DNA from: Candidatus Latescibacterota bacterium
GTDB taxonomy: Bacteria; Latescibacterota; UBA2968; UBA8231
Length of the DNA stretch: 64,000 bases
Reading direction: 5' to 3'
Assembly: GCA_965248355.1 (NCBI GenBank)
Contig: OZ252098.1
Span: 4,608,001 to 4,672,000 of the forward strand
Shown here: one piece after another, positions 16,942-40,365 of the stretch
Numbering within the stretch: position 1 is the first letter of the stretch
Layout: the number at the start of each line of letters is the position of its first letter
Notes under the pieces: model-generated
What the model saw: only the letters and a program-made list of their open reading frames with translations
Databases searched by the model: none
Told to the model about the DNA's origin: nothing
Made by a program: the position numbers and the translations under genes

Positions 16942-17091
16942 TTACGGGTGGCCCTCCAGGTGACGGTCGATCCGGGCGTTCAGGGCATCGAATCGTCGCT
17001 CAAGGCTGTCGATCCTGGCACCCAGAACCTTCCAGAGAAAAACGGTGGCAGCCACTACGACCGCCGGGGTCAAATAGGACTCCAGGCTCAT
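16942..17091 (-). CDS. Small membrane-anchored coiled-coil protein (49 aa)
   Basis: RBS GGAGG and upstream TTGACA; TM helix then RIDSLERRFDALNARIDRHLEGHP; paralog at 29132. Confidence 0.7.
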   Translation of the reverse strand: MSLESYLTPAVVVAATVFLWKVLGARIDSLERRFDALNARIDRHLEGHP

Positions 17092-17166
17092 TGGGTAGCC
17101 CTCCTTCCGCAAGAACCTTCCGGCGGAAAGGCCCCTTGTCAAGCCATCGGAGGAACCGGGGCGCCG

Positions 17167-17622
17167 TCAGCGGCGGGTACTGCCCTTCACCTGGCCCCAG
17201 GACCGGGGCGTCACGGCGGTGGCCGACGAGATCACCAGCGTCACCCGGGGCAGGTCCGCTTCGGCGGGCCCCTCCAGGTAGCGGCCCTCGCGGTCGAAGT
17301 AGCTCTCGTGGCAGGAGCAGGCGATGAGGCCCTCCTCGTCGGGCAGGGAGACCTCGCAGCCCCAGTGAGGACAGGCGCTGCTGAAGGCGATGAGCTCGTC
17401 CTCCGACAGGCGCACCACGATCACGGGCTCGAAGCTGCCCTCGGGGAGCACCTTCATGGAGCCGCCCACCTCGGCCAGGGCGGCGAAGCGCGGGTCGTCG
17501 AGGTCGATGACGACCTGCACCTCCCGCCGCTGCTGCGGTCCGGCGCCGGCGGTCTCCCGCCAGGCGGCGGCCCCGGCCACGGCGAGGGTGACGACGCGGC
17601 GCCCGAAGCACCTGCGGTCCAT
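17167..17622 (-). CDS. Tat-exported Rieske [2Fe-2S] protein with SWGQVK tail
   Basis: RRxF signal, CPHWGC and CSCH ligand boxes, 'FDREGRYLEGPA'. Confidence 0.88.
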   Translation of the reverse strand: MDRRCFGRRVVTLAVAGAAAWRETAGAGPQQRREVQVVIDLDDPRFAALAEVGGSMKVLPEGSFEPVIVVRLSEDELIAFSSACPHWGCEVSLPDEEGLIACSCHESYFDREGRYLEGPAEADLPRVTLVISSATAVTPRSWGQVKGSTRR

Positions 17623-28117: not shown

Positions 28118-28461
28118 GTGGCATCCCCGAGGCGACCAACCTCGACCTCATGGCCGTCCTCGCGCAGCCGACGCCCTACCAGATCGCCGGCGACACCATG
28201 ACCATCCTCGGAGAGGAACAGGGAGCGGGCTTCGACGATGTAGCCGATGCCGTACCAGCAGCGGGAGTACGGGTCCTCCAGCTCCGGCGGCGTGAAGGTA
28301 AGCTCGACGTAGGCGCTCCGGCCCACGGGCCGGGCCGACAGGTCCGTGACGCCCCCCAGCTCGACGTCCCAGTGGCGCCAGCACTCGAAGTCGTCCACGA
28401 TGGGGCCGCTTGTGGGCTTGGAGCAGCCGCCCAGCACCAGGACCAACAGCAGGCGTCTCAC
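28075..28461 (-). CDS. Putative lipoprotein, C-terminus possibly chimeric
   Basis: GTG start; lipobox LGGC after 'RRLLLVLV'. Confidence 0.5.
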   Translation of the reverse strand: MRRLLLVLVLGGCSKPTSGPIVDDFECWRHWDVELGGVTDLSARPVGRSAYVELTFTPPELEDPYSRCWYGIGYIVEARSLFLSEDGHGVAGDLVGRRLREDGHEVEVGRLGDATQEILQELASSGLR

Positions 28462-28830
28462 GCCTCGTCTTCGCAGCCGTGGGGGCCGTCGTGCCAGCGG
28501 ACCACCCGCCAGACACCGGACGAGTCCGCCTCCACCCGGATCGACATCTCCTGCTCCACGTGGGTCAGGGAGTAGCGGGTGCGAAACAGGTGCATCTCCG
28601 CCGGTCCGGTGAAGGTCCGGGAGGTGTGTCCGTCGCTGAGCCAGGGATCGCGCAGGGTCCAGGTGATGCCGAGGTAGTGGTCGAAGACGCCGGAGGCGAC
28701 GTCTCCAGCGTCCCAAACGACCTCGTGGTCCCCGGCCTCCCGGAACCTGTCCACCAAGGTACGCACCGGTTGGCCAATGGCGTTGTAGATCACCAGTCGC
28801 ACGTGGCCAGGCTCGACCAGGCGATATGGG
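28458..28830 (-). pseudogene. FlgD-Ig/secretion C-terminal-domain fragment fused to an unrelated C-terminus
   Basis: 'VRLVIYNAIGQPVRTLVD..REAGDHEVVWDA..VASGV' then an abrupt change of sequence character. Confidence 0.6.
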
Positions 28831-29131: not shown

Positions 29132-29380
29132 TCATGGGGTTCCCTCCAGATAGCGGTCGAGGCGGTCGTTGACGCGGTCGATGCGGCCGCCCAGATCGGC
29201 GTTGACGCGGTCGATGCGGCTACCCAGATCGGCGTTGACGCGGTCGATGCGGCTACCCAGATCATGGCGCTGGTCTCGGATCTCGGTGCGCAGATCCCGG
29301 ATCTCCGTGCGCATGAAGCGCCATAGCGCCAAGCCGACGGCCACGACCAAGGTCGGGGTGATCCAGTCGATTCCTGTCAT
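29132..29380 (-). CDS. Small membrane-anchored coiled-coil protein (82 aa) with hendecad repeats
   Basis: TM helix, TEIRD x2, DLG(S/G)RIDRVN x3, ends RLDRYLEGTP. Confidence 0.75.
   Translation of the reverse strand: MTGIDWITPTLVVAVGLALWRFMRTEIRDLRTEIRDQRHDLGSRIDRVNADLGSRIDRVNADLGGRIDRVNDRLDRYLEGTP
29167..29313. repeat. 33-bp x3 and 21-bp x2 coding tandem repeats
   Basis: CGTTGACGCGGTCGATGCGGCyrCCCAGATCGG x3 (29167-29263); CGGATCTCsGTGCGCA x2. Confidence 0.9.
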
Positions 29381-29537
29381 GAGTCGTTCCCTCCGCAAAG
29401 CGTGGGATGTGGGGTAGAAGTTACTGACCGGCGACTCCTTGAGGCAGTCGCAGCACCTTGCAGCGAAGCCCGGCTTCGGTGGGCCGCTGGCTTCGCTGCC
29501 ATCGCTGCCATCGGCAGGGCGTAGAGATCGACCTGGG

Positions 29538-29729
29538 TCACGTAGACTTCGCTGCGCGCTTGTCGACTTCGCCCGCGGAGGCGGTCTCGAAGAACAAGGT
29601 GAGCGCCTCGGCCAGGTTGTCGCGCGCTTCGGCCACGGTGTCTCCCTGGCTGGCGACGTCAAGTTCGGGGCACAGGGCGACGTATCCGTCCCCTTCGCGT
29701 TCAACGATGGCGGTCAGCTGTCTGGTCAT
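29538..29729 (-). CDS. hicB: HicB-family antitoxin, short and orphan
   Basis: LTAIVEREGDGYVALCPELDVASQGDTVAEARDNLAEAL; no hicA recognisable beside it. Confidence 0.85.
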   Translation of the reverse strand: MTRQLTAIVEREGDGYVALCPELDVASQGDTVAEARDNLAEALTLFFETASAGEVDKRAAKST

Positions 29730-36270: not shown

Positions 36271-37169
36271 TCAGATGGTGCGGTTGGGGCCGGAGCGGTG
36301 CTGGATCAGGCCGTGGTGGAAGGAGCAGCCGCCGGCCCGCAGGGTCACGGGCCGCTCCCGCTCCCGGTCGATGGCGGCGTCGGGGATCTTGTCCTTGCGC
36401 TCGCCCACCATCCACGCCTCGCTGTGGTCGACGGCGCCGAGCTTATGCGCGGCCCGTTTCGGAACGTACAGGTATTCTACGTCATTGGTCAGATTCTGAA
36501 CCTGGTAGAACAGAGGATCGGCCGGATAGCCGGGCAAACGAGCCCACAGCGACGACCAGCGTGTCCAGGTGCTGCCTTCGTCGTTGCTGCGCCGGTAGGA
36601 ATAGTACCTGACCGGAGGCCCGCTCACCGGCGCCGGCGTCCAGCTCAGAGACACGTACTCATCCCGCCCCGTCGCCGCCAGGGTGAACGGGCCGGCCGGG
36701 GTCGCCTGGGCCGGGGCCGGATCGCCGGCCGCCGCCGGGTTCACCGCCCACAACTCGAAGGTATACGGCGTGCCGTTGTCCAGTCCGACAGAGGGGAAAC
36801 ATCCACCACGGAGTTGCCCGAAAGGCGAAGCCAGGCAAGGCGGGTCAGCGCAGAGAGCGGCGTCACATCCGAGATGTCGTTGCTGTTGTCCCAAGGTTCC
36901 TGGGTAGCCTCCGACCCCAGGTCCAAACGGGTCAGACCGGTCGCATACTCCAAACCGGACAAATCGTCAATGCCCGCGTCGGGGGCCTCCAGGACGGTCA
37001 GCGTCGCCAACTCGGACGCAGTGATCGGATCGCCTGACGCCAGGCCGAGGCTGTCCTCCAGCACCGCCCGCAGGGCAGCGTCCGGCACCGTCACCGTCTG
37101 CGCCCAACTGGGCGGTAGGTCCATCAAGGTCAGTCCAACCATGAGTAGCAAGATTCTGCAACTGCGCAC
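36271..37169 (-). pseudogene. Chimeric remnant: signal peptide + internalin-like LRR, fibronectin-III fragments, PhyH C-terminal fragment
   Basis: 'VPDAALRAVLE..LSGLEYATGLTRLDL..NDISDVTPLSALT'; 'GLDNGTPYTFELWAVN'; 'TLRAGGCSFHHGLIQHRSGPN'. Confidence 0.75.
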
Positions 37170-37294
37170 GGTTTTTCTTCTCCTCTATCTGCTTGGCGAT
37201 AGTGTGGGTTGAAGCAGGGAAAAACCGCCCTGCTTGCAGAATGACAAACGCTGAGGAAGGCCCGGTCCCATATCTCAAGTAGTGGGAGCGATGC

Positions 37295-38194
37295 TCATTG
37301 TGCAAAGCTGGCCTTGATCTGTCCCCAGCTCGTGCTCCGGACAGGCGTCCGAGCGTCACCCAGCGGCAACAGCATCCAGTCCATGAGGGCGGAGCTGTCA
37401 TACACCCGGGGGTCCATGTAGCTCTCGTAGGGCGGTAGGGGAGGGGGCCAGGTCTCGAGGCCAGGCCCCCCCCCGTGCGCCATACGGTGCCACCATCAGC
37501 GACGGGTGCACCAGCACGTTGAAGTACCGACTCCACCACTCGGCGGTCAGGGTGGCCTCGGTGCCGTGCTCGCCAACAAGAGTGTAGCCGTCGGGGCAGC
37601 AGGAGTAGGGCTCCTTGTCATGCCAGCTGGCGTTGCTCGTCCACATCCAGTGCCAGCGGGTGCCCCCGCTAACGGGCGGGAAGCCGAACCAGGACTCTTG
37701 GCCGTGGCGGCCGATCAGTCGCCTTCTTTGCTCGCGATCGTGAGAGTCGTGAGGTTCGCCGGGGGGGGGGGGGGGGAGTGATGCCACCACTGTGGTCTGC
37801 GTCGACGTGGACCTCGAAGCTGTCGTCCCCGCCGCAGAGGCCGGGGGACACATAGAACTGGTCACGGTCGAACAGATCGTCGTAGCGATGCTGGGCGAAG
37901 TAGAGACGGTCGGTCTCGTCGTTCCAGGCGACGGTGAAGCGCACCGTGAGGTCCGCCGGGTCGGCCTCGGTGCCGGGTCGGCCGGCTTCCTCCCCCTCCG
38001 GCGCCCAGGGTACTCAGATCCAGCCACAGGCTGTCCGGCACCACCTCCCACTCGGACAGATCCCCGTCGAGGGTCGGCAGCATGTCCGCCGGCCACTGCC
38101 AGATACCGCGGACCGTGCCCTGGAGCACGTGGGCCTGCGTTGGGCCGAGGCCCAGAAGAATCACGGCCAAGGTGAGCTGTTCTCTGATGGTCAT
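37295..38194 (-). pseudogene. Secreted CBM9/DOMON-like protein with SWGQIK tail; several frameshifts
   Basis: 'PTLDGDLSEW', 'VAWNDETDRLYF', 'DDSFEVHVDADHSGG', tail 'TPVRSTSWGQIK'; G16 at 37761-37776 and C9 at 37466-37474. Confidence 0.7.
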
Positions 38195-38957
38195 GTCCCC
38201 CTCTTTGAGACAGGCTCTCCCAGGGCTGGGGAGTCCTGTGCATGGAACGACGCTGTCAGTGGCGTCAGCTTCACGATGGAGTTGTCGGCCAGATCCGGCC
38301 AAGCCAGGCGGTCAGCCCCGAGCGCGGCGACAGGTCGGAGATGTCGTTCGGGCCCTCTCCCAGGACCAAGTGGGTCAGTCCGGTGCGTCGTCCTGCGCCC
38401 AGCCGGCCGGCAGGGAAATCCCGATACCGCGCATGGTCTTCGGCTCCTCAATCTGTCAAGGTCCGGCCTACCGCAGACGGTGCTCTATCGCGCCCCAGGA
38501 CGCCCCTCCGAGAGGCGGAGGGAACGGGGGGAGCGTCCCCAGGTCAAAGGCCTCCGGCGGTGTTCTCCCGGGCCGATTCGCGTCTGCGTACTGCAAACTC
38601 CGTGCCGCTTTCCGAATCAGAAGGGCAACTTATTGTAAACAGAGGCTGTAAACGGAGGTCTAACAAGGACTTGGACGAAGTAGCCAGGAGTGTGTGTAGC
38701 AATTTGCGACTGAAGACGCAATTTGCAACCCATTGGCAGCGTCCTCATCGTCTTCGGGAGCCCTTGCGAGGCGTATGAAACCTGCGGCGGGGGCCAACGT
38801 CGCTCTATGGTCGCCCGTAGCGTGGCGCACGCCCCGACGTGCTCCTTGACGAGCAGGGCGCGAGGTTCTGGAGATGCTGGTCCGCTTCTGCACGACGGAA
38901 GCGACGCCGTGAGACCGGTTCTTTCCTACCCTTCGGGTGTTCCTGGAAGGAGATCCC

Positions 38958-39617
38958 ATGCGCCTGACACCGCAGCAGCTCAACTTCATGGAGACCTTCG
39001 GGTTCCTGCACTTCCCCGGCCGCATCGAGGACCGCATCGAGGCCGTCATCGAGGCCTTCGAGGGGGTCTGGGCATCCCAGGGCGGCGGCCACGACGGCCG
39101 GCCCCACGACGGCACGGGGCGCTCCTGCATCGTGCCCTTCGCCGGGCAGAGCGAGTACCTCTCCAGCCTGCTCGACGACCCGCGCATCGACGGCATCCTG
39201 GGCAGCCTGCTGGGCGACGACTACGTCTACCTCGGCAGCGACGGCAACTATTACGTGGGCGACACCGCCTGGCATTCCGACGGCGGCTGGCCGCGCCCCA
39301 TCATCTACTACAAGATCGCCTTCTACCTCGACCGGCTGACGCGCGGCAGCGGCGCCATCCGCGTGATCCCGGGCAGCCACCGCTACGGCGAGGGCTACTG
39401 CACTCGGCGCCACACCGAGGAAGAGCTGCCCATCATGCGGCAGGAGGTGGCCAACTTCGCCCGCTTCCTCACCGACTCCGTGTACGGGCGGGCCATGGTC
39501 GCCACGGCCCCGCCGGCGCGCATGCGCCACCTGGAGCAGCCCCTGGCCAACCAGGACCACCTGCCGGCGCTGTCGGCGCAGGCGCGCCGGGAGCGGGGCG
39601 TACCTTCCCCCGGCTGA
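38958..39617 (+). pseudogene. PhyH family dioxygenase with in-frame internal deletion
   Basis: WHSD and 'GAIRVIPGSH' present; the distal His strand is missing after GEGY. Confidence 0.75.
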
Positions 39618-40365
39618 TGATTGTCGACGCCCACAGCCACGTCTTCCCCGAGCCCCGGGGGCAGGTGCGGGAGGGGCCGACGCGGGACGGCGGATACGGG
39701 CGCATGCGGGTCGGCGGACGTCTGATGCAGCTCATGCCGCCCCTGAACCGGCGCACCGAGTTCACCACGGAGATGCTGCTGGCGAATCTGGACTGGGCGG
39801 GGGTGGACGCGGCCGTGCTGCTCCAGGGGACCTACTACGGCGAGTGCGATGGCTACGTGGCCGAGGCGGTGGCCGCGAATCCGGGGCGGCTCGTCGGCGC
39901 CCTGTGGTGCGACCCCTGGCGGCCGGGTTTCCGCCGCTACTCGGCGCCGGCAAGATCGAGTTCTCCGAGGGCACGGGGCTGATGGGAGTGCACCCCGGGG
40001 CGCGCCTGGACGACGAGGAGGTGCGGTGGCTGTGGCCGGCGCTGGAGGCGAGCGGCATGGTGCTCACCCTGGATCTCGGCCCCCCGGCCCAGGGGGCCTA
40101 CCAGACCGCGGCGGTGCGGGCCATCGCCGAGGCCCACGAGGGGCTGCGCGTCGTCATCACCCACCTGGCCCACCCGCGGATCGACGACGAGGACGACCCG
40201 GAGTTGCGCCGGCGCCGGGATGAGCAGCTGGCCCTCGGGGAGCGGCCCAACGTCTGGTTCGACTTCGCCTCCTTTCCGGCCCTGCTGGGCGGGGACCAGG
40301 CCCTGGTCCTGGGGGAGACGGCGCGGCAGGTCTACTTTGGAGAACGGAAGGGAGACGAGGGATGA
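39617..40365 (+). pseudogene. Amidohydrolase_2 family protein, deleted and frameshifted
   Basis: MIVDAHSHVF, AAVLLQG, VVITHLAHP, NVWFDFAS; lacks the WG(S/T)D region; frame switch near 39940. Confidence 0.8.

What the first reader, a model, noticed from the sequence alone, without database searches (positions are those of the whole stretch)
17167..17230. Shared C-terminal tail TxVxxxSWGQ(V/I)K on unrelated exported proteins: candidate protein-sorting signal
Seen: the Tat-signal Rieske protein ends 'ATAVTPRSWGQVKGSTRR'. The unrelated Sec-signal CBM9-like gene (37295-38194) ends 'RTPVRSTSWGQIKASFAQ'. The motif sits 5 residues from the C-terminus in both, and both have N-terminal export signals. 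Known: short conserved tails on diverse passengers are typical of dedicated sorting or secretion signals (LPXTG, PEP-CTERM, GlyGly-CTERM, T9SS CTD). This tail has no TM helix, so it does not match the membrane-anchored types. From memory, similar 'WG.IK' tails occur in Latescibacterota/Poribacteria proteins, but I know of no assigned machinery. Inference: a lineage-specific surface-targeting or secretion signal. A FlgD/CTD-like fragment near 28700-28830 hints at a T9SS-like apparatus in the same genome.
Basis: partly seen in the sequence, partly recalled or inferred. Interest (0 to 1): 0.8.

Follow-up and report, generated by a model that had tools for sequence, protein, structure and literature searches.

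The report
Short C-terminal tag on exported proteins
About forty unrelated exported proteins of this uncultured bacterium end in the same 17-residue peptide, which looks like an undescribed address or anchoring label for the cell envelope whose reader is still unknown.

Summary
The tail is real and far beyond chance. The Rieske gene (17167-17622, minus strand) ends in it. The second gene also carries it, but is broken into three frames in this assembly.

Across the 5.5-Mb genome, 42 open frames end in T-x-V-x3-[ST]-W-G-x-[IVL]-K, followed by 3-10 residues and the stop. None carries it internally. They span 13 unrelated passenger families, including Rieske, c-type cytochrome, Cache, LTD, lipocalin-like and CBM9-like proteins, mostly with signal peptides.

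No Pfam or NCBIfam model and no searchable paper matches the tail. It shows no profile similarity to the genome's own type IX secretion (T9SS) C-terminal domains. AlphaFold2 leaves it as a low-confidence appendage.

All 68 genomes searched from the window's own family have it, as do six further families. It was not found in families f2 (0/31) and f4 (0/22), which still have SprA and PorV-like genes.

The best co-distributed candidate partner is an unannotated ~900-residue putative outer-membrane family. Canonical PorU also fits in part.

The tail's function as a sorting or anchoring signal is inferred, not shown.

This scan has reported the same kind of tag before on other DNA (Eisenbacteria, Krumholzibacteriota, Latescibacterota).

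The parts
17167..17622 (-). Gene for a 151-aa exported Rieske [2Fe-2S] protein that carries the tail
   Evidence: ORF found. Pfam Rieske match at E 1.9e-10 over residues 65-125. Nine orthologues down to 52% identity all keep the tail.
17533..17622 (-). N-terminal export signal (MDRRCFGRRVVTLAVAGAAAW...), twin-arginine type by eye
   Evidence: Sequence. The RR-x-F pattern and a short hydrophobic stretch are visible. AF2 pLDDT is below 50 for residues 1-33. No signal-peptide predictor was available.
17248..17430 (-). Rieske domain (residues 65-125)
   Evidence: Pfam PF00355. AF2 pLDDT 81-95 per ten-residue block over about residues 41-120, 79 over 121-130.
17170..17223 (-). The C-terminal tail A134-R151. 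The core T135-x-V137-x3-S141-W142-G143-x-V145-K146 lies at 17185-17220.
   Evidence: T135, V137, S141, W142, G143 and K146 are invariant in 9 orthologues, while neighbouring positions vary. Residues 132-151 have pLDDT below 50. The tail scores 25.5 bits against the genome's tail profile.
37295..38194 (-). Broken CBM9-like gene (second example). Its pieces lie in three reading frames.
   Evidence: Four internal stops in one frame. tblastn against the intact paralogue L004 gives pieces at 38188-37940 (frame -3), 38004-37780 (-1), 37682-37500 (-2) and 37399-37298 (-3). Indel differences in other runs at 37466 and 37760/61.
37298..37348 (-). Tail of the broken CBM9-like gene: TPVRSTSWGQIKASFAQ
   Evidence: It scores 31.5 bits against the tail profile, the second best in the genome.

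Best explanation
The tail is a portable linear recognition peptide, T-x-V-x3-[ST]-W-G-x-[IVL]-K plus 3-10 residues. It sits on a variable linker at the very end of proteins that the Sec or Tat pathway has already exported.

I read it as an envelope address or anchoring tag that a lineage-specific protein partner reads after export. It occupies the place that folded type IX C-terminal domains occupy on other proteins of the same genome.

Shown here:
- its strict C-terminal position;
- its portability across 13 passenger families;
- its conservation at the protein level;
- its separation from the folded passenger;
- its patchy distribution across families of the phylum.

Inferred: that it is read by a partner, and that the result is sorting or tethering at the outer membrane or cell surface.

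My odds for the partner's identity:
- About 0.25: the unannotated ~900-residue putative outer-membrane family. This family is encoded beside the CBM9-like tail genes and shares the tail's distribution.
- About 0.25: the type IX route (PorV/PorU), with the tail acting as a minimal signal.
- About 0.10: some other, unidentified partner.

Whether the tail is cleaved is unknown.
For: Position.
- 39 of 39 profile hits scoring >=13.4 bits, among 52,426 stop-to-stop frames, end within 7 residues of the stop.
- 42 frames score >=10.5 bits. The independent search found 43 matches in this genome at E<=0.01.
- One search shows four further divergent tails.

Export.
- 38 of 42 have a hydrophobic N-terminal segment after a candidate start, though that start was chosen to maximise the score.
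- With an unbiased crude rule on called starts, 24 of 38 tail genes qualify against 714 of 4463 genes overall (odds ratio 9.3, p 6e-11). The same rule finds only 17 of 47 certain type IX cargo, so it undercounts.

Portability.
- There are 13 passenger families by BLAST linkage.
- Pfam names Rieske, LTD, Temptin_C with a CxxCH site, Lipocalin_4, Cache and CBM9; 31 of 39 proteins get no family.
- In another class of the phylum, an FGE-sulfatase-type protein carries the tail.

Specific recognition rather than mere composition.
- Over one representative of each of the 13 families: W 13/13, K 13/13, G 12/13, V/I at -5 13/13, T at -7 11/13, always at fixed spacing.
- Synonymous codons vary at these sites, e.g. 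Gly GGC 17, GGG 7, GGA 5, GGT 1.

Separate from the fold.
- AF2 gives pLDDT below 50 for Rieske residues 132-151.
- In the CBM9-like model the three ten-residue blocks covering 281-301 average pLDDT 49, 49 and 39, after a last strand at 268-273.
- The linker varies in length.

Same position as known signals.
- LTD + tail (L003) versus LTD + FlgD_ig CTD (L121) in the same genome.
- A 1580-aa CTD protein shares a 100-residue domain, at 44% identity, with a 170-aa tail protein.

Lineage pattern (153 genomes >=80% complete).
- Present: f1 68/68, f6 3/3, f7 1/1, f8 1/1, f9 2/2, f11 1/1, f12 3/3.
- Not found: f2 0/31, f4 0/22, f13 0/1, f14 0/4.
- Single or weak hits only: f10 1/11, f3 1/3, f5 1/1.

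Candidate partner, ~900-aa family.
- At E<=1e-200: f6 3/3, f9 2/2, f11 1/1, f12 3/3, and most f1 genomes (f1 68/68 at E<=1e-20; four have best E 1e-48 to 1e-79).
- At 1e-48 to 1e-75: f5, f7, f8.
- Only 1e-23 to 1e-38: f10, f13.
- None: f2, f3, f4, f14.
- In G000, 9 of the 10 close-subfamily genes have a tail gene within 6 genes, against none of the distant subfamily. The same adjacency is seen in family f9.

Canonical PorU scores over its cut-off in 95 of 153 genomes, none of them in f2, f3 or f4.
Against: No experiment or proteomic datum bears on localisation or cleavage.

No partner is demonstrated.

The type IX system alone does not explain the pattern.
- SprA is present in 41/41 relatives, including f2 12/12.
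- PorV-like genes are present in 153/153 genomes. Copies are more numerous in tail-less f2 and f4 (mostly 7-13 per genome, some as few as 2-6) than in tail-bearing families (1-9).
- Type-A CTDs are present in 41/41 relatives.
- f10, f13 and f14 have full-length PorU but no tail.

The tail profile has no likeness to the genome's own CTDs (hhalign probability 0.06%).

The match with the ~900-aa family has several weaknesses.
- It uses a threshold chosen after seeing the data.
- It rests on about two independent taxonomic contrasts.
- It is confounded, because the largest tail-bearing family (CBM9-like) travels in the same gene cassettes.
- 30 of the 38 tail genes are not near such a gene.
- The family's barrel fold was not tested here.

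Several passengers (Rieske, c-type cytochrome, Cache) look like periplasmic proteins. In one genome of family f8, 7 of 12 tail genes sit beside polytopic inner-membrane DUF6785 genes. That fits a periplasmic tether as well as it fits a surface signal.

Gene starts come from a home-made gene caller.
Confidence: 0.6

Rival explanations
1. Autonomous membrane anchor. The last ~10 residues (S-W-G-x-I-K-A-x-F) form a short amphipathic helix. It holds periplasmic proteins on a membrane surface without any dedicated reader, as the C-terminal helices of some penicillin-binding proteins do (that comparison is recalled).
For: AF2 draws a helix at residues 290-300 of the CBM9-like model, at low confidence. 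W, I/V and F/L fall at i, i+3 and i+7, with K and R beside them (sequences). No dedicated machinery has been found. The passengers include periplasm-type redox and ligand-binding proteins. In G046, 7 of 12 tail genes are adjacent to polytopic DUF6785 genes with 9-12 predicted membrane segments.
Against: The segment is very short. W, G and K are invariant, and the upstream T-x-V sits at fixed spacing in 13 unrelated families. That is more than amphipathicity requires. A reader-free anchor gives no reason for the clean presence and absence between sister families. The Rieske model shows no helix there.
Confidence: 0.15
2. Processing or degradation tag. The tail is recognised by a periplasmic protease or chaperone, for C-terminal processing, quality control or maturation, rather than for placement.
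For: It is a flexible C-terminal peptide on exported proteins. Cofactor-bearing passengers (Rieske, c-type cytochrome) might need a maturation checkpoint.
Against: The extreme C-terminus is not conserved, and the distance from the Lys to the end varies from 3 to 10 residues. This does not suit readers of a free carboxyl end. A degradation signal kept on about 40 proteins, and invariant in Rieske orthologues down to 52% identity, is hard to explain. No candidate protease was tested.
Confidence: 0.07
3. Structural element. The tail is the last strand or helix of a shared domain, or an oligomerisation piece of the passengers.
For: 20 of the 38 called tail genes belong to one CBM9-like superfamily.
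Against: It also ends 12 other families with different folds. It follows a linker of variable length. It is not packed onto the fold in two AF2 models. CBM9-like relatives exist with a PKD domain in its place.
Confidence: 0.03
4. Chance, or a repeated DNA element rather than a protein feature.
For: High G+C content (68.9%) produces many long spurious frames.
Against: 33 of 63 motif occurrences lie 3-8 residues before a stop, against 8.4% background and 1-3 for each of five permuted motifs. Synonymous codons vary at conserved sites. There are 5-57 copies per genome in 68 of 68 family members searched.
Confidence: 0.01

Closest known systems
T9SS type-A C-terminal domain (TIGR04183 / PF18962; FlgD_ig-like form in this genome)
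   Same: It sits at the extreme C-terminus of signal-peptide proteins of many unrelated families. It occurs in a genome with SprA, PorU and a PorV-like gene. An LTD paralogue pair carries either one or the other.
   Different: The CTD is a folded module of about 70-85 residues with its own motifs (NPFNP...GVYxYRL...RKxLLLK in this genome). The tail is about 17 residues, is not confidently folded and has no profile similarity. Its distribution is narrower than that of CTDs.
Short CTDs of Prevotella intermedia, and the 22-residue minimal signal of Hbp35 (PMC11969387; I read passages found by term search)
   Same: They show that type IX signals can be much reduced. The paper reports CTDs of 43-55 residues with three strands. 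It cites earlier mutagenesis in which only the last 22 residues of Hbp35 were absolutely required for secretion and attachment of GFP.
   Different: Those short CTDs keep motifs B, D (GxY) and E and are found by CTD HMMs. The tail here is shorter still, lacks those motifs and is missed by all models.
Tripartite C-terminal sorting signals (LPXTG/sortase, PEP-CTERM/exosortase, GlyGly-CTERM/rhombosortase, MYXO-CTERM/myxosortase). Abstracts seen in the listing; the architecture is recalled.
   Same: A short signature motif at the C-terminus of dozens of unrelated exported proteins per genome, present in some lineages and absent from their relatives.
   Different: Those signals have a membrane helix and a basic cluster after the motif. 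The tail has neither (maximum hydropathy 1.48), so an intramembrane or membrane-bound sortase of those kinds is unlikely.
T9SS type-B CTD cargo with cognate PorP/SprF-type outer-membrane partners (PMC12618676; abstract only, in the listing)
   Same: Cargo genes lie next to genes for their own outer-membrane partner. Here the CBM9-like tail genes lie in cassettes with ~900-aa putative outer-membrane proteins and with FlgD_ig/CHU_C-tailed proteins.
   Different: The tail is not a type-B CTD. The ~900-aa family matches no PorP/SprF or other model. Most tail genes are not in cassettes.

Membership tests
T9SS type-A CTD (TIGR04183 / PF18962 / FlgD_ig) | Match to the family profile | tested here: not met
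   No Pfam hit on the tail in 39 proteins at E<=0.01. No NCBIfam hit in 26 proteins at E<=1. hhalign of the tail profile against 47 of the genome's own CTDs gives probability 0.06%.
T9SS type-A CTD (TIGR04183 / PF18962 / FlgD_ig) | Folded Ig-like beta-sandwich of about 70-100 residues | tested here: not met
   The conserved part is about 17 residues after a variable linker. AF2 pLDDT is below 50 for Rieske 132-151. In the CBM9-like model the blocks covering 281-301 average 49, 49 and 39.
T9SS type-A CTD (TIGR04183 / PF18962 / FlgD_ig) | At the C-terminus of signal-peptide proteins in a genome with T9SS core genes | tested here: met
   for position and signal peptides. SprA and PorU score over their cut-offs, and a PorV-like gene is present.
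T9SS type-A CTD (TIGR04183 / PF18962 / FlgD_ig) | Secretion depends on the T9SS; PorU cleaves the signal | not testable with these tools
   Only co-occurrence is available. All tail-bearing families have canonical PorU, but f10, f13 and f14 have PorU without the tail.
Short CTD of Prevotella intermedia type | 43-55 residues, three strands, motifs B, D (GxY) and E retained | tested here: not met
   The tail's length and motif differ. The criteria come from passages of PMC11969387.
Tripartite sorting signals (PEP-CTERM, LPXTG, GlyGly-CTERM, MYXO-CTERM and kin) | Hydrophobic membrane helix and basic cluster after the signature motif | tested here: not met
   Only 3-10 residues follow the Lys. The maximum 15-residue Kyte-Doolittle mean in the last 35 residues is 1.48, median 0.43.
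Tripartite sorting signals (PEP-CTERM, LPXTG, GlyGly-CTERM, MYXO-CTERM and kin) | Match to one of NCBI's CTERM models | tested here: not met
   NCBIfam scan at E<=1. The only CTERM-model hit (cyano_PEP, 10.2 bits) lies on an N-terminal signal peptide, not on the tail.
Tripartite sorting signals (PEP-CTERM, LPXTG, GlyGly-CTERM, MYXO-CTERM and kin) | Dedicated processing enzyme that co-occurs with the signal | not tested
   No sortase, exosortase, rhombosortase or CPBP family was profiled against the tail's distribution.
Outer-membrane protein beta-signal | Last strand of a membrane barrel, ending in an aromatic residue at the very C-terminus | tested here: not met
   The passengers are small soluble domains. 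The terminal residues are variable.
C-terminal amphipathic-helix membrane anchor | Amphipathic helix long enough to lie in the membrane interface | tested here: inconclusive
   A low-confidence helix at 290-300 in one model and none in the other. The hydrophobic i, i+3, i+7 pattern is present, but the segment is only about 10 residues.

The most novel reading that the evidence does not exclude
The tail is a docking peptide. It plugs already folded, even cofactor-loaded, exported proteins (Rieske, c-type cytochrome, lectin-like and sensor-like modules) onto a new family of ~900-residue outer-membrane proteins. Together they would form a modular surface or periplasm-facing display system of Latescibacterota and neighbouring uncultured phyla. 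That system would be distinct from sortase-type and classical type IX CTD sorting.
Probability: 0.2. Interest if true: 0.85.

Novelty: new variant of a known kind. Interest (0 to 1): 0.62.

Why it matters
Short C-terminal tags have repeatedly led to the discovery of new sorting machines, such as sortases, exosortases, rhombosortase and myxosortase.

This tag marks about 1% of the genes of a 5.5-Mb genome. It is kept in every searched member of the window's own family. According to earlier notes of this scan, it also occurs in other uncultured FCB-group phyla. Yet it has no model in Pfam or NCBIfam, and no paper I could find describes it.

It also lets one annotate dozens of "hypothetical" proteins per genome as envelope-directed.

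If the cargo really includes Tat-exported iron-sulfur and haem proteins, the system handles folded cargo.

Tried and rejected
Structure and look-alike searches
- Complex prediction of the PorV-like protein (alignment A5, residues 25-356) with the tail segment (alignment A4, residues 262-301) returned "no answer". The score was 0.00, the controls were not run, and the partner's fold was uncertain. This is neither support nor evidence against binding.
- ESM Atlas on the tail part alone gave a best score of 0.85, a lead only.
- ESM Atlas on the ~900-aa protein found only unnamed Latescibacterota/Gemmatimonadota clusters. The nearest named cluster (DUF6029, TonB-dependent-receptor-like) scored 0.89, below the trustworthy range.
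- The ~900-aa family has no Pfam hit, no NCBIfam hit and no PDB sequence hit with a 7-row profile at E<=1.

Candidates that did not track the tail
- DUF6785: present in 142 of 153 genomes, including tail-less f2 31/31 and f4 22/22.
- Extra PorV-like paralogues: copies are more numerous in tail-less f2 and f4 (mostly 7-13 per genome) than in tail-bearing families (1-9), and three tail-bearing genomes have a single copy.
- A second PorU paralogue: 25 of the 28 genomes searched from genus g14, which have 8-57 tails, show only one PorU.

Search for a direct replacement of the tail in orthologues
- The CBM9-like protein L019 found nothing in 5 genomes of f2/f4. That query had no positive control among them, so the blank proves little.
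- In f10, 11 of 11 strong CBM9-like matches end in a PKD domain. They are orthologues of a PKD-ended paralogue that G000 also has. So this is a sister subfamily, not a swap within orthologues.

Other attempts
The narrower A6 worked.
- No RNA holder was listed among the sequencing runs.
- Literature: no paper holds SWGRIK, SWGQIK, WGRIKA, SWGxIK, WGxIK or SWGAIK. None holds three of C-terminal / Eisenbacteria / Krumholzibacteriota / Latescibacterota / sorting. None holds DUF6785, DUF6784 or PF20581. Subscription journals and preprint supplements were not searchable.
Full report
**Observation.** The ORF at 17167..17622 on the minus strand encodes a 151-residue protein ending ATAVTPRSWGQVKGSTRR. 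It has an RR-type N-terminal signal and a Rieske domain (Pfam E 1.9e-10, residues 65-125).

The second tail, RTPVRSTSWGQIKASFAQ, is present at 37295..37348, but the gene that carries it is broken.
- Read in one frame, 37295-38194 has four internal stops.
- Against an intact paralogue from elsewhere in the genome, it aligns as four pieces in frames -3, -1, -2 and -3.
- Contigs of four other public runs, from four studies, all lack two letters at 37466.
- Two of those runs also differ by +3 or -4 letters at 37760/61.

So the gene is decaying or mis-assembled here, and at least one frameshift is peculiar to this assembly.

**More than chance.** The window lies in a single-contig genome of 5.50 Mb with 68.9% G+C.
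- In its six-frame translation, WG.[IVLM]K occurs 63 times, and 33 of these lie 3-8 residues before a stop.
- The background for that position is 8.4%.
- Five permuted motifs gave 2/40, 3/38, 1/25, 3/31 and 1/38.
- For [ST]WG.[IVLM]K the count is 27 of 30.

I built a profile from 31 tails and searched it against all 52,426 stop-to-stop frames of at least 50 residues.
- All 39 hits of 13.4 bits or more end within 7 residues of the stop.
- 42 frames reach 10.5 bits.
- An independent search of the genome with a 32-row alignment found 43 matches at E<=0.01.
- Four further divergent tails turned up among paralogues.

Synonymous codons vary at the conserved positions: Gly uses GGC 17, GGG 7, GGA 5 and GGT 1, and Val uses GTC 18, GTG 16 and GTT 2. 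The conservation is therefore at the protein level and does not come from a repeated DNA element.

**Anatomy of the tag.** I took one representative from each of 13 unrelated passenger families.
- W is kept in 13/13, K in 13/13 and the hydrophobic residue before K in 13/13.
- G is kept in 12/13, and V or I five residues before W in 13/13.
- T seven residues before W is kept in 11/13, and S or T just before W in 10/13.
- The spacing is always the same.
- Three to ten residues follow the Lys, most often four or five, and they are poorly conserved.

There is no membrane helix: the maximum 15-residue hydropathy in the last 35 residues is 1.48.

In nine Rieske orthologues, down to 52% identity, T135, V137, S141, W142, G143 and K146 are invariant while their neighbours vary.

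In the CBM9-like family the tail follows a linker of variable length, with an insertion of about 20 residues in one member.

AlphaFold2 leaves the tail at low confidence in both models.
- Rieske residues 132-151 have pLDDT below 50, while the domain blocks over residues 41-120 average 81-95.
- In the CBM9-like model the three ten-residue blocks covering 281-301 average pLDDT 49, 49 and 39, after a last strand at 268-273.
- A low-confidence helix is drawn over S-W-G-R-I-K-D-T-F-T-N.

So the tail is not a strand of the passenger fold.

**Who carries it.** The 38 tail genes present in my home-made gene set fall into 13 families.
- Twenty belong to a CBM9-like superfamily. Foldseek matches it to CBM9 structures 7nwn and 1i82 at E about 1e-8 to 1e-9.
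- Four are lipocalin-like.
- The remaining 14 fall into three pairs, one of them Cache, and eight singletons. The singletons include the Rieske protein, an LTD protein and a Temptin_C-type protein with a CxxCH haem site.
- 31 of 39 proteins scanned have no Pfam family at E<=0.01.

Tail proteins are small, with a median of 278 residues against 618 for the genome's classical type IX cargo.

Signal peptides are obvious by eye at a candidate start in 38 of 42, although that start was chosen to maximise the score. With a crude fixed rule on called starts, 24 of 38 tail genes qualify against 714 of 4463 genes overall (odds ratio 9.3, p 6e-11). The same rule finds only 17 of 47 classical cargo, so it undercounts.

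**Not a catalogued signal.** No Pfam model (39 proteins) and no NCBIfam model (26 proteins at E<=1) touches the tail.

The genome does have a type IX system.
- SprA scores over its cut-off.
- Two PorU genes score over their cut-off.
- A PorV-like gene lies directly after one PorU.
- TIGR04183 matches 80 places.

Those CTDs are about 85-residue modules of the NPFNP...GVYLYRL...RKMLLLK type. hhalign of the tail profile against 47 of them gives a probability of 0.06%.

Full-text searches found no paper with the motif strings. None combined the relevant phyla with C-terminal sorting.

Passages of PMC11969387 show that type IX signals can shrink. They describe CTDs of 43-55 residues in Prevotella intermedia. 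They also cite mutagenesis in which only the last 22 residues of Hbp35 were absolutely required for GFP secretion. Those signals keep the CTD motifs, which the tail lacks.

**Positional equivalence with known signals.** In this genome an LTD protein ends in the tail (L003), while its paralogue ends in a FlgD_ig-type CTD (L121, E 3e-7). A 1580-residue CTD protein shares a 100-residue domain, at 44% identity, with a 170-residue tail protein.

CBM9-like relatives with a terminal PKD domain instead of the tail also exist.
- G000 has one (L122).
- Two genomes of the tail-less family f10 gave 11 of 11 strong matches of this kind.
- These are orthologues of the PKD-ended paralogue, so they form a sister subfamily rather than a swap within orthologues.

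**Distribution.** Record titles of close relatives read "Candidatus Latescibacterota bacterium"; one reads "Gemmatimonadaceae bacterium".

The tail profile matched 24 of 24 genomes of the window's own family (5-48 hits each). It matched 0 of 12 in sister family f2.

The wider sample was 153 genomes of the phylum, each at least 80% complete.
- Tail present: f1 68/68, f6 3/3, f7 1/1, f8 1/1, f9 2/2, f11 1/1, f12 3/3.
- Single or weak hits only: f5 1/1, f3 1/3, f10 1/11.
- None: f2 0/31, f4 0/22, f13 0/1, f14 0/4.

Family f1 shares its class with the tail-less f2, f3 and f4. The other tail-bearing families sit among tail-less ones elsewhere in the phylum. The pattern therefore needs at least two gains or losses.

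**Testing candidate readers against that pattern.**
- SprA: 41 of 41 relatives, including f2 12/12.
- PorV-like, always below NCBI's cut-off: 153 of 153. Tail-less f2 and f4 mostly have 7-13 copies, though some have as few as 2-6. Tail-bearing families have 1-9, and three tail-bearing genomes have a single copy.
- Type-A CTDs: 41 of 41 relatives, with 23-106 per genome in f1 and 7-16 in f2.
- DUF6785: 142 of 153, including f2 and f4.

None of these discriminates.

Canonical full-length PorU scores over its cut-off in 95 of 153 genomes, none of them in f2, f3 or f4. In those families the best hits are 1e-61 to 1e-83; the rows listed are partial matches (about 260-280 bits, model positions 5-737) inside ORFs that are mostly about 1900 residues long. 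Every tail-bearing family has PorU, but so do the tail-less f10, f13 and f14. PorU is therefore at most necessary.

The best fit is an unannotated family of about 900 residues (query L039:2455-5085).
- E<=1e-200 in f6, f9, f11, f12 and most f1 genomes. All 68 f1 genomes match at E<=1e-20, and four have best E of 1e-48 to 1e-79.
- 1e-48 to 1e-75 in f5, f7 and f8.
- Only 1e-23 to 1e-38 in f10 and f13.
- Nothing in f2, f3, f4 or f14.

Its members have signal peptides and end in an F-I-T-V-Y-A-G-L strand-like segment. They have no Pfam, NCBIfam or PDB sequence match. In G000, nine of the ten close-subfamily members have a tail gene within six genes, and none of the distant-subfamily members does. 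The same adjacency recurs in a genome of family f9.

Caveats on this fit:
- The threshold was chosen after seeing the data.
- Related genomes are not independent samples.
- The CBM9-like tail genes travel in the same cassettes, so the two distributions are partly the same fact.
- 30 of the 38 tail genes are not near such a gene.
- The family's fold was not tested here.

**What argues for a periplasmic tether instead.** Rieske, c-type cytochrome and Cache passengers are typical periplasmic modules.

In genome G046 (family f8), 7 of 12 tail genes lie directly beside DUF6785/DUF6784 genes. In G000, three proteins of that family have 9-12 predicted membrane segments.

The W/I/F spacing fits a short amphipathic helix.

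Against this stand the strict conservation of G, W, K and T-x-V at fixed spacing, and the clean lineage pattern. I rate this rival at 0.15.

**Verdict.** The tail is a portable, protein-level, strictly C-terminal tag on about 42-46 exported proteins of 13 families. It is kept throughout the window's own family and in six further families of the phylum. No curated model or searchable paper describes it.

This scan has reported the same kind of tag before on other DNA, with an L-Y-R ending, in Eisenbacteria, Krumholzibacteriota and Latescibacterota. I did not re-test those notes.

- A complete census in one closed genome.
- A family-level presence/absence map.
- The exclusion of SprA, PorV-like copies, CTDs and DUF6785 as discriminating partners.
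- A partial fit for PorU.
- A new best candidate partner, the ~900-residue family.

That the tail is an address or anchoring label read by a partner remains an inference (confidence 0.6). The partner's identity, the tail's cleavage and the final location are open.

Noticed in passing
Alignment A4 (loci L002-L038 and L062-L065); the window copy is 37295-38194: In the CBM9-like tail family, a His directly after the predicted signal-peptide cleavage site (A21, H22) is kept in at least 90% of 23 sequences. So is a second His in the DGDHSGG motif (H127). D47, G48, W53, D105, E199, D239 and D241 are invariant. An N-terminal His on the mature protein together with a second His suggests a metal site (a recalled analogy with histidine-brace copper proteins). 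The fold also resembles haem-binding subunits 2ivf_C and 7b04_O.
   Followed up: no
window 28458-28802 (-): An ORF begins with the middle of a type-A T9SS C-terminal domain (VRLVIYNAIGQPVRTLVD...VVWDAGDVASGVF) and then diverges. It is a CTD remnant without a passenger and has no Pfam hit at E<=0.001.
   Followed up: partly
window 36271-40365: A stretch of apparent gene decay. It holds a 157-aa PhyH fragment, an LRR fragment, the three-frame CBM9-like gene, another PhyH piece, and an Amidohydro_2 gene split into 121- and 153-aa pieces.
   Followed up: partly
G000:C1:2806492-2808426 and about 25 paralogues; G046 loci L053, L057-L060: DUF6785+DUF6784 proteins are about 650 aa long. In three G000 members checked, 9-12 membrane segments are predicted. 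They form a family of about 26 paralogues in this genome and occur in 142 of 153 genomes of the phylum. No searchable paper mentions them. In G046 they are paired one-to-one with CBM9-like tail genes.
   Followed up: partly
Families f2, f3 and f4 of the same class (e.g. G025-G040): The relatives searched from these families have SprA and 7-29 type-A CTD matches per genome, and all 56 of their genomes in the phylum sample have PorV-like genes. No canonical PorU was found in any of the 56. They show only a partial PorU-like match, which in the rows listed lies inside ORFs mostly about 1900 aa long. How their type IX cargo is processed is unclear.
   Followed up: partly
G000:C1:225455-228088 and 29 paralogues; the distant subfamily forms triplets at 147-164 kb, 500-508 kb, 554-563 kb, 1579-1588 kb and 1959-1968 kb: A family of unannotated secreted proteins of about 900-1050 aa, with Asp/Asn-rich repeats (DDNDDQDR, DENNDF, NQND). 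It has no Pfam, NCBIfam or PDB match. One subfamily sits in cassettes with FlgD_ig/CHU_C-tailed proteins, TPR proteins and CBM9-like tail genes. The other forms tandem triplets with no tail gene nearby.
   Followed up: partly
window 16942-17112 (-) and 29132-29704 (-): Two small ORFs end in similar coiled-coil-like repeats and a shared ending: ...RIDSLERRFDALNARIDRHLEGHP and ...RIDRVNADLGGRIDRVNDRLDRYLEGTP. The first lies directly downstream of the Rieske gene. They may be a family of small membrane or coiled-coil proteins.
   Followed up: no
G049 and G056 (family f10) loci L107-L118; G000:C1:2796827-2797876: A CBM9-like subfamily ends in a terminal PKD domain (PKD_4, E 1e-7 to 1e-15) with a ...V-x-D-V-x-V-K ending. 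It accounts for 11 of the 11 strong matches (E<=1e-42) in the two f10 genomes. The domain sits at the extreme C-terminus, where the tail sits in the sister subfamily.
   Followed up: partly
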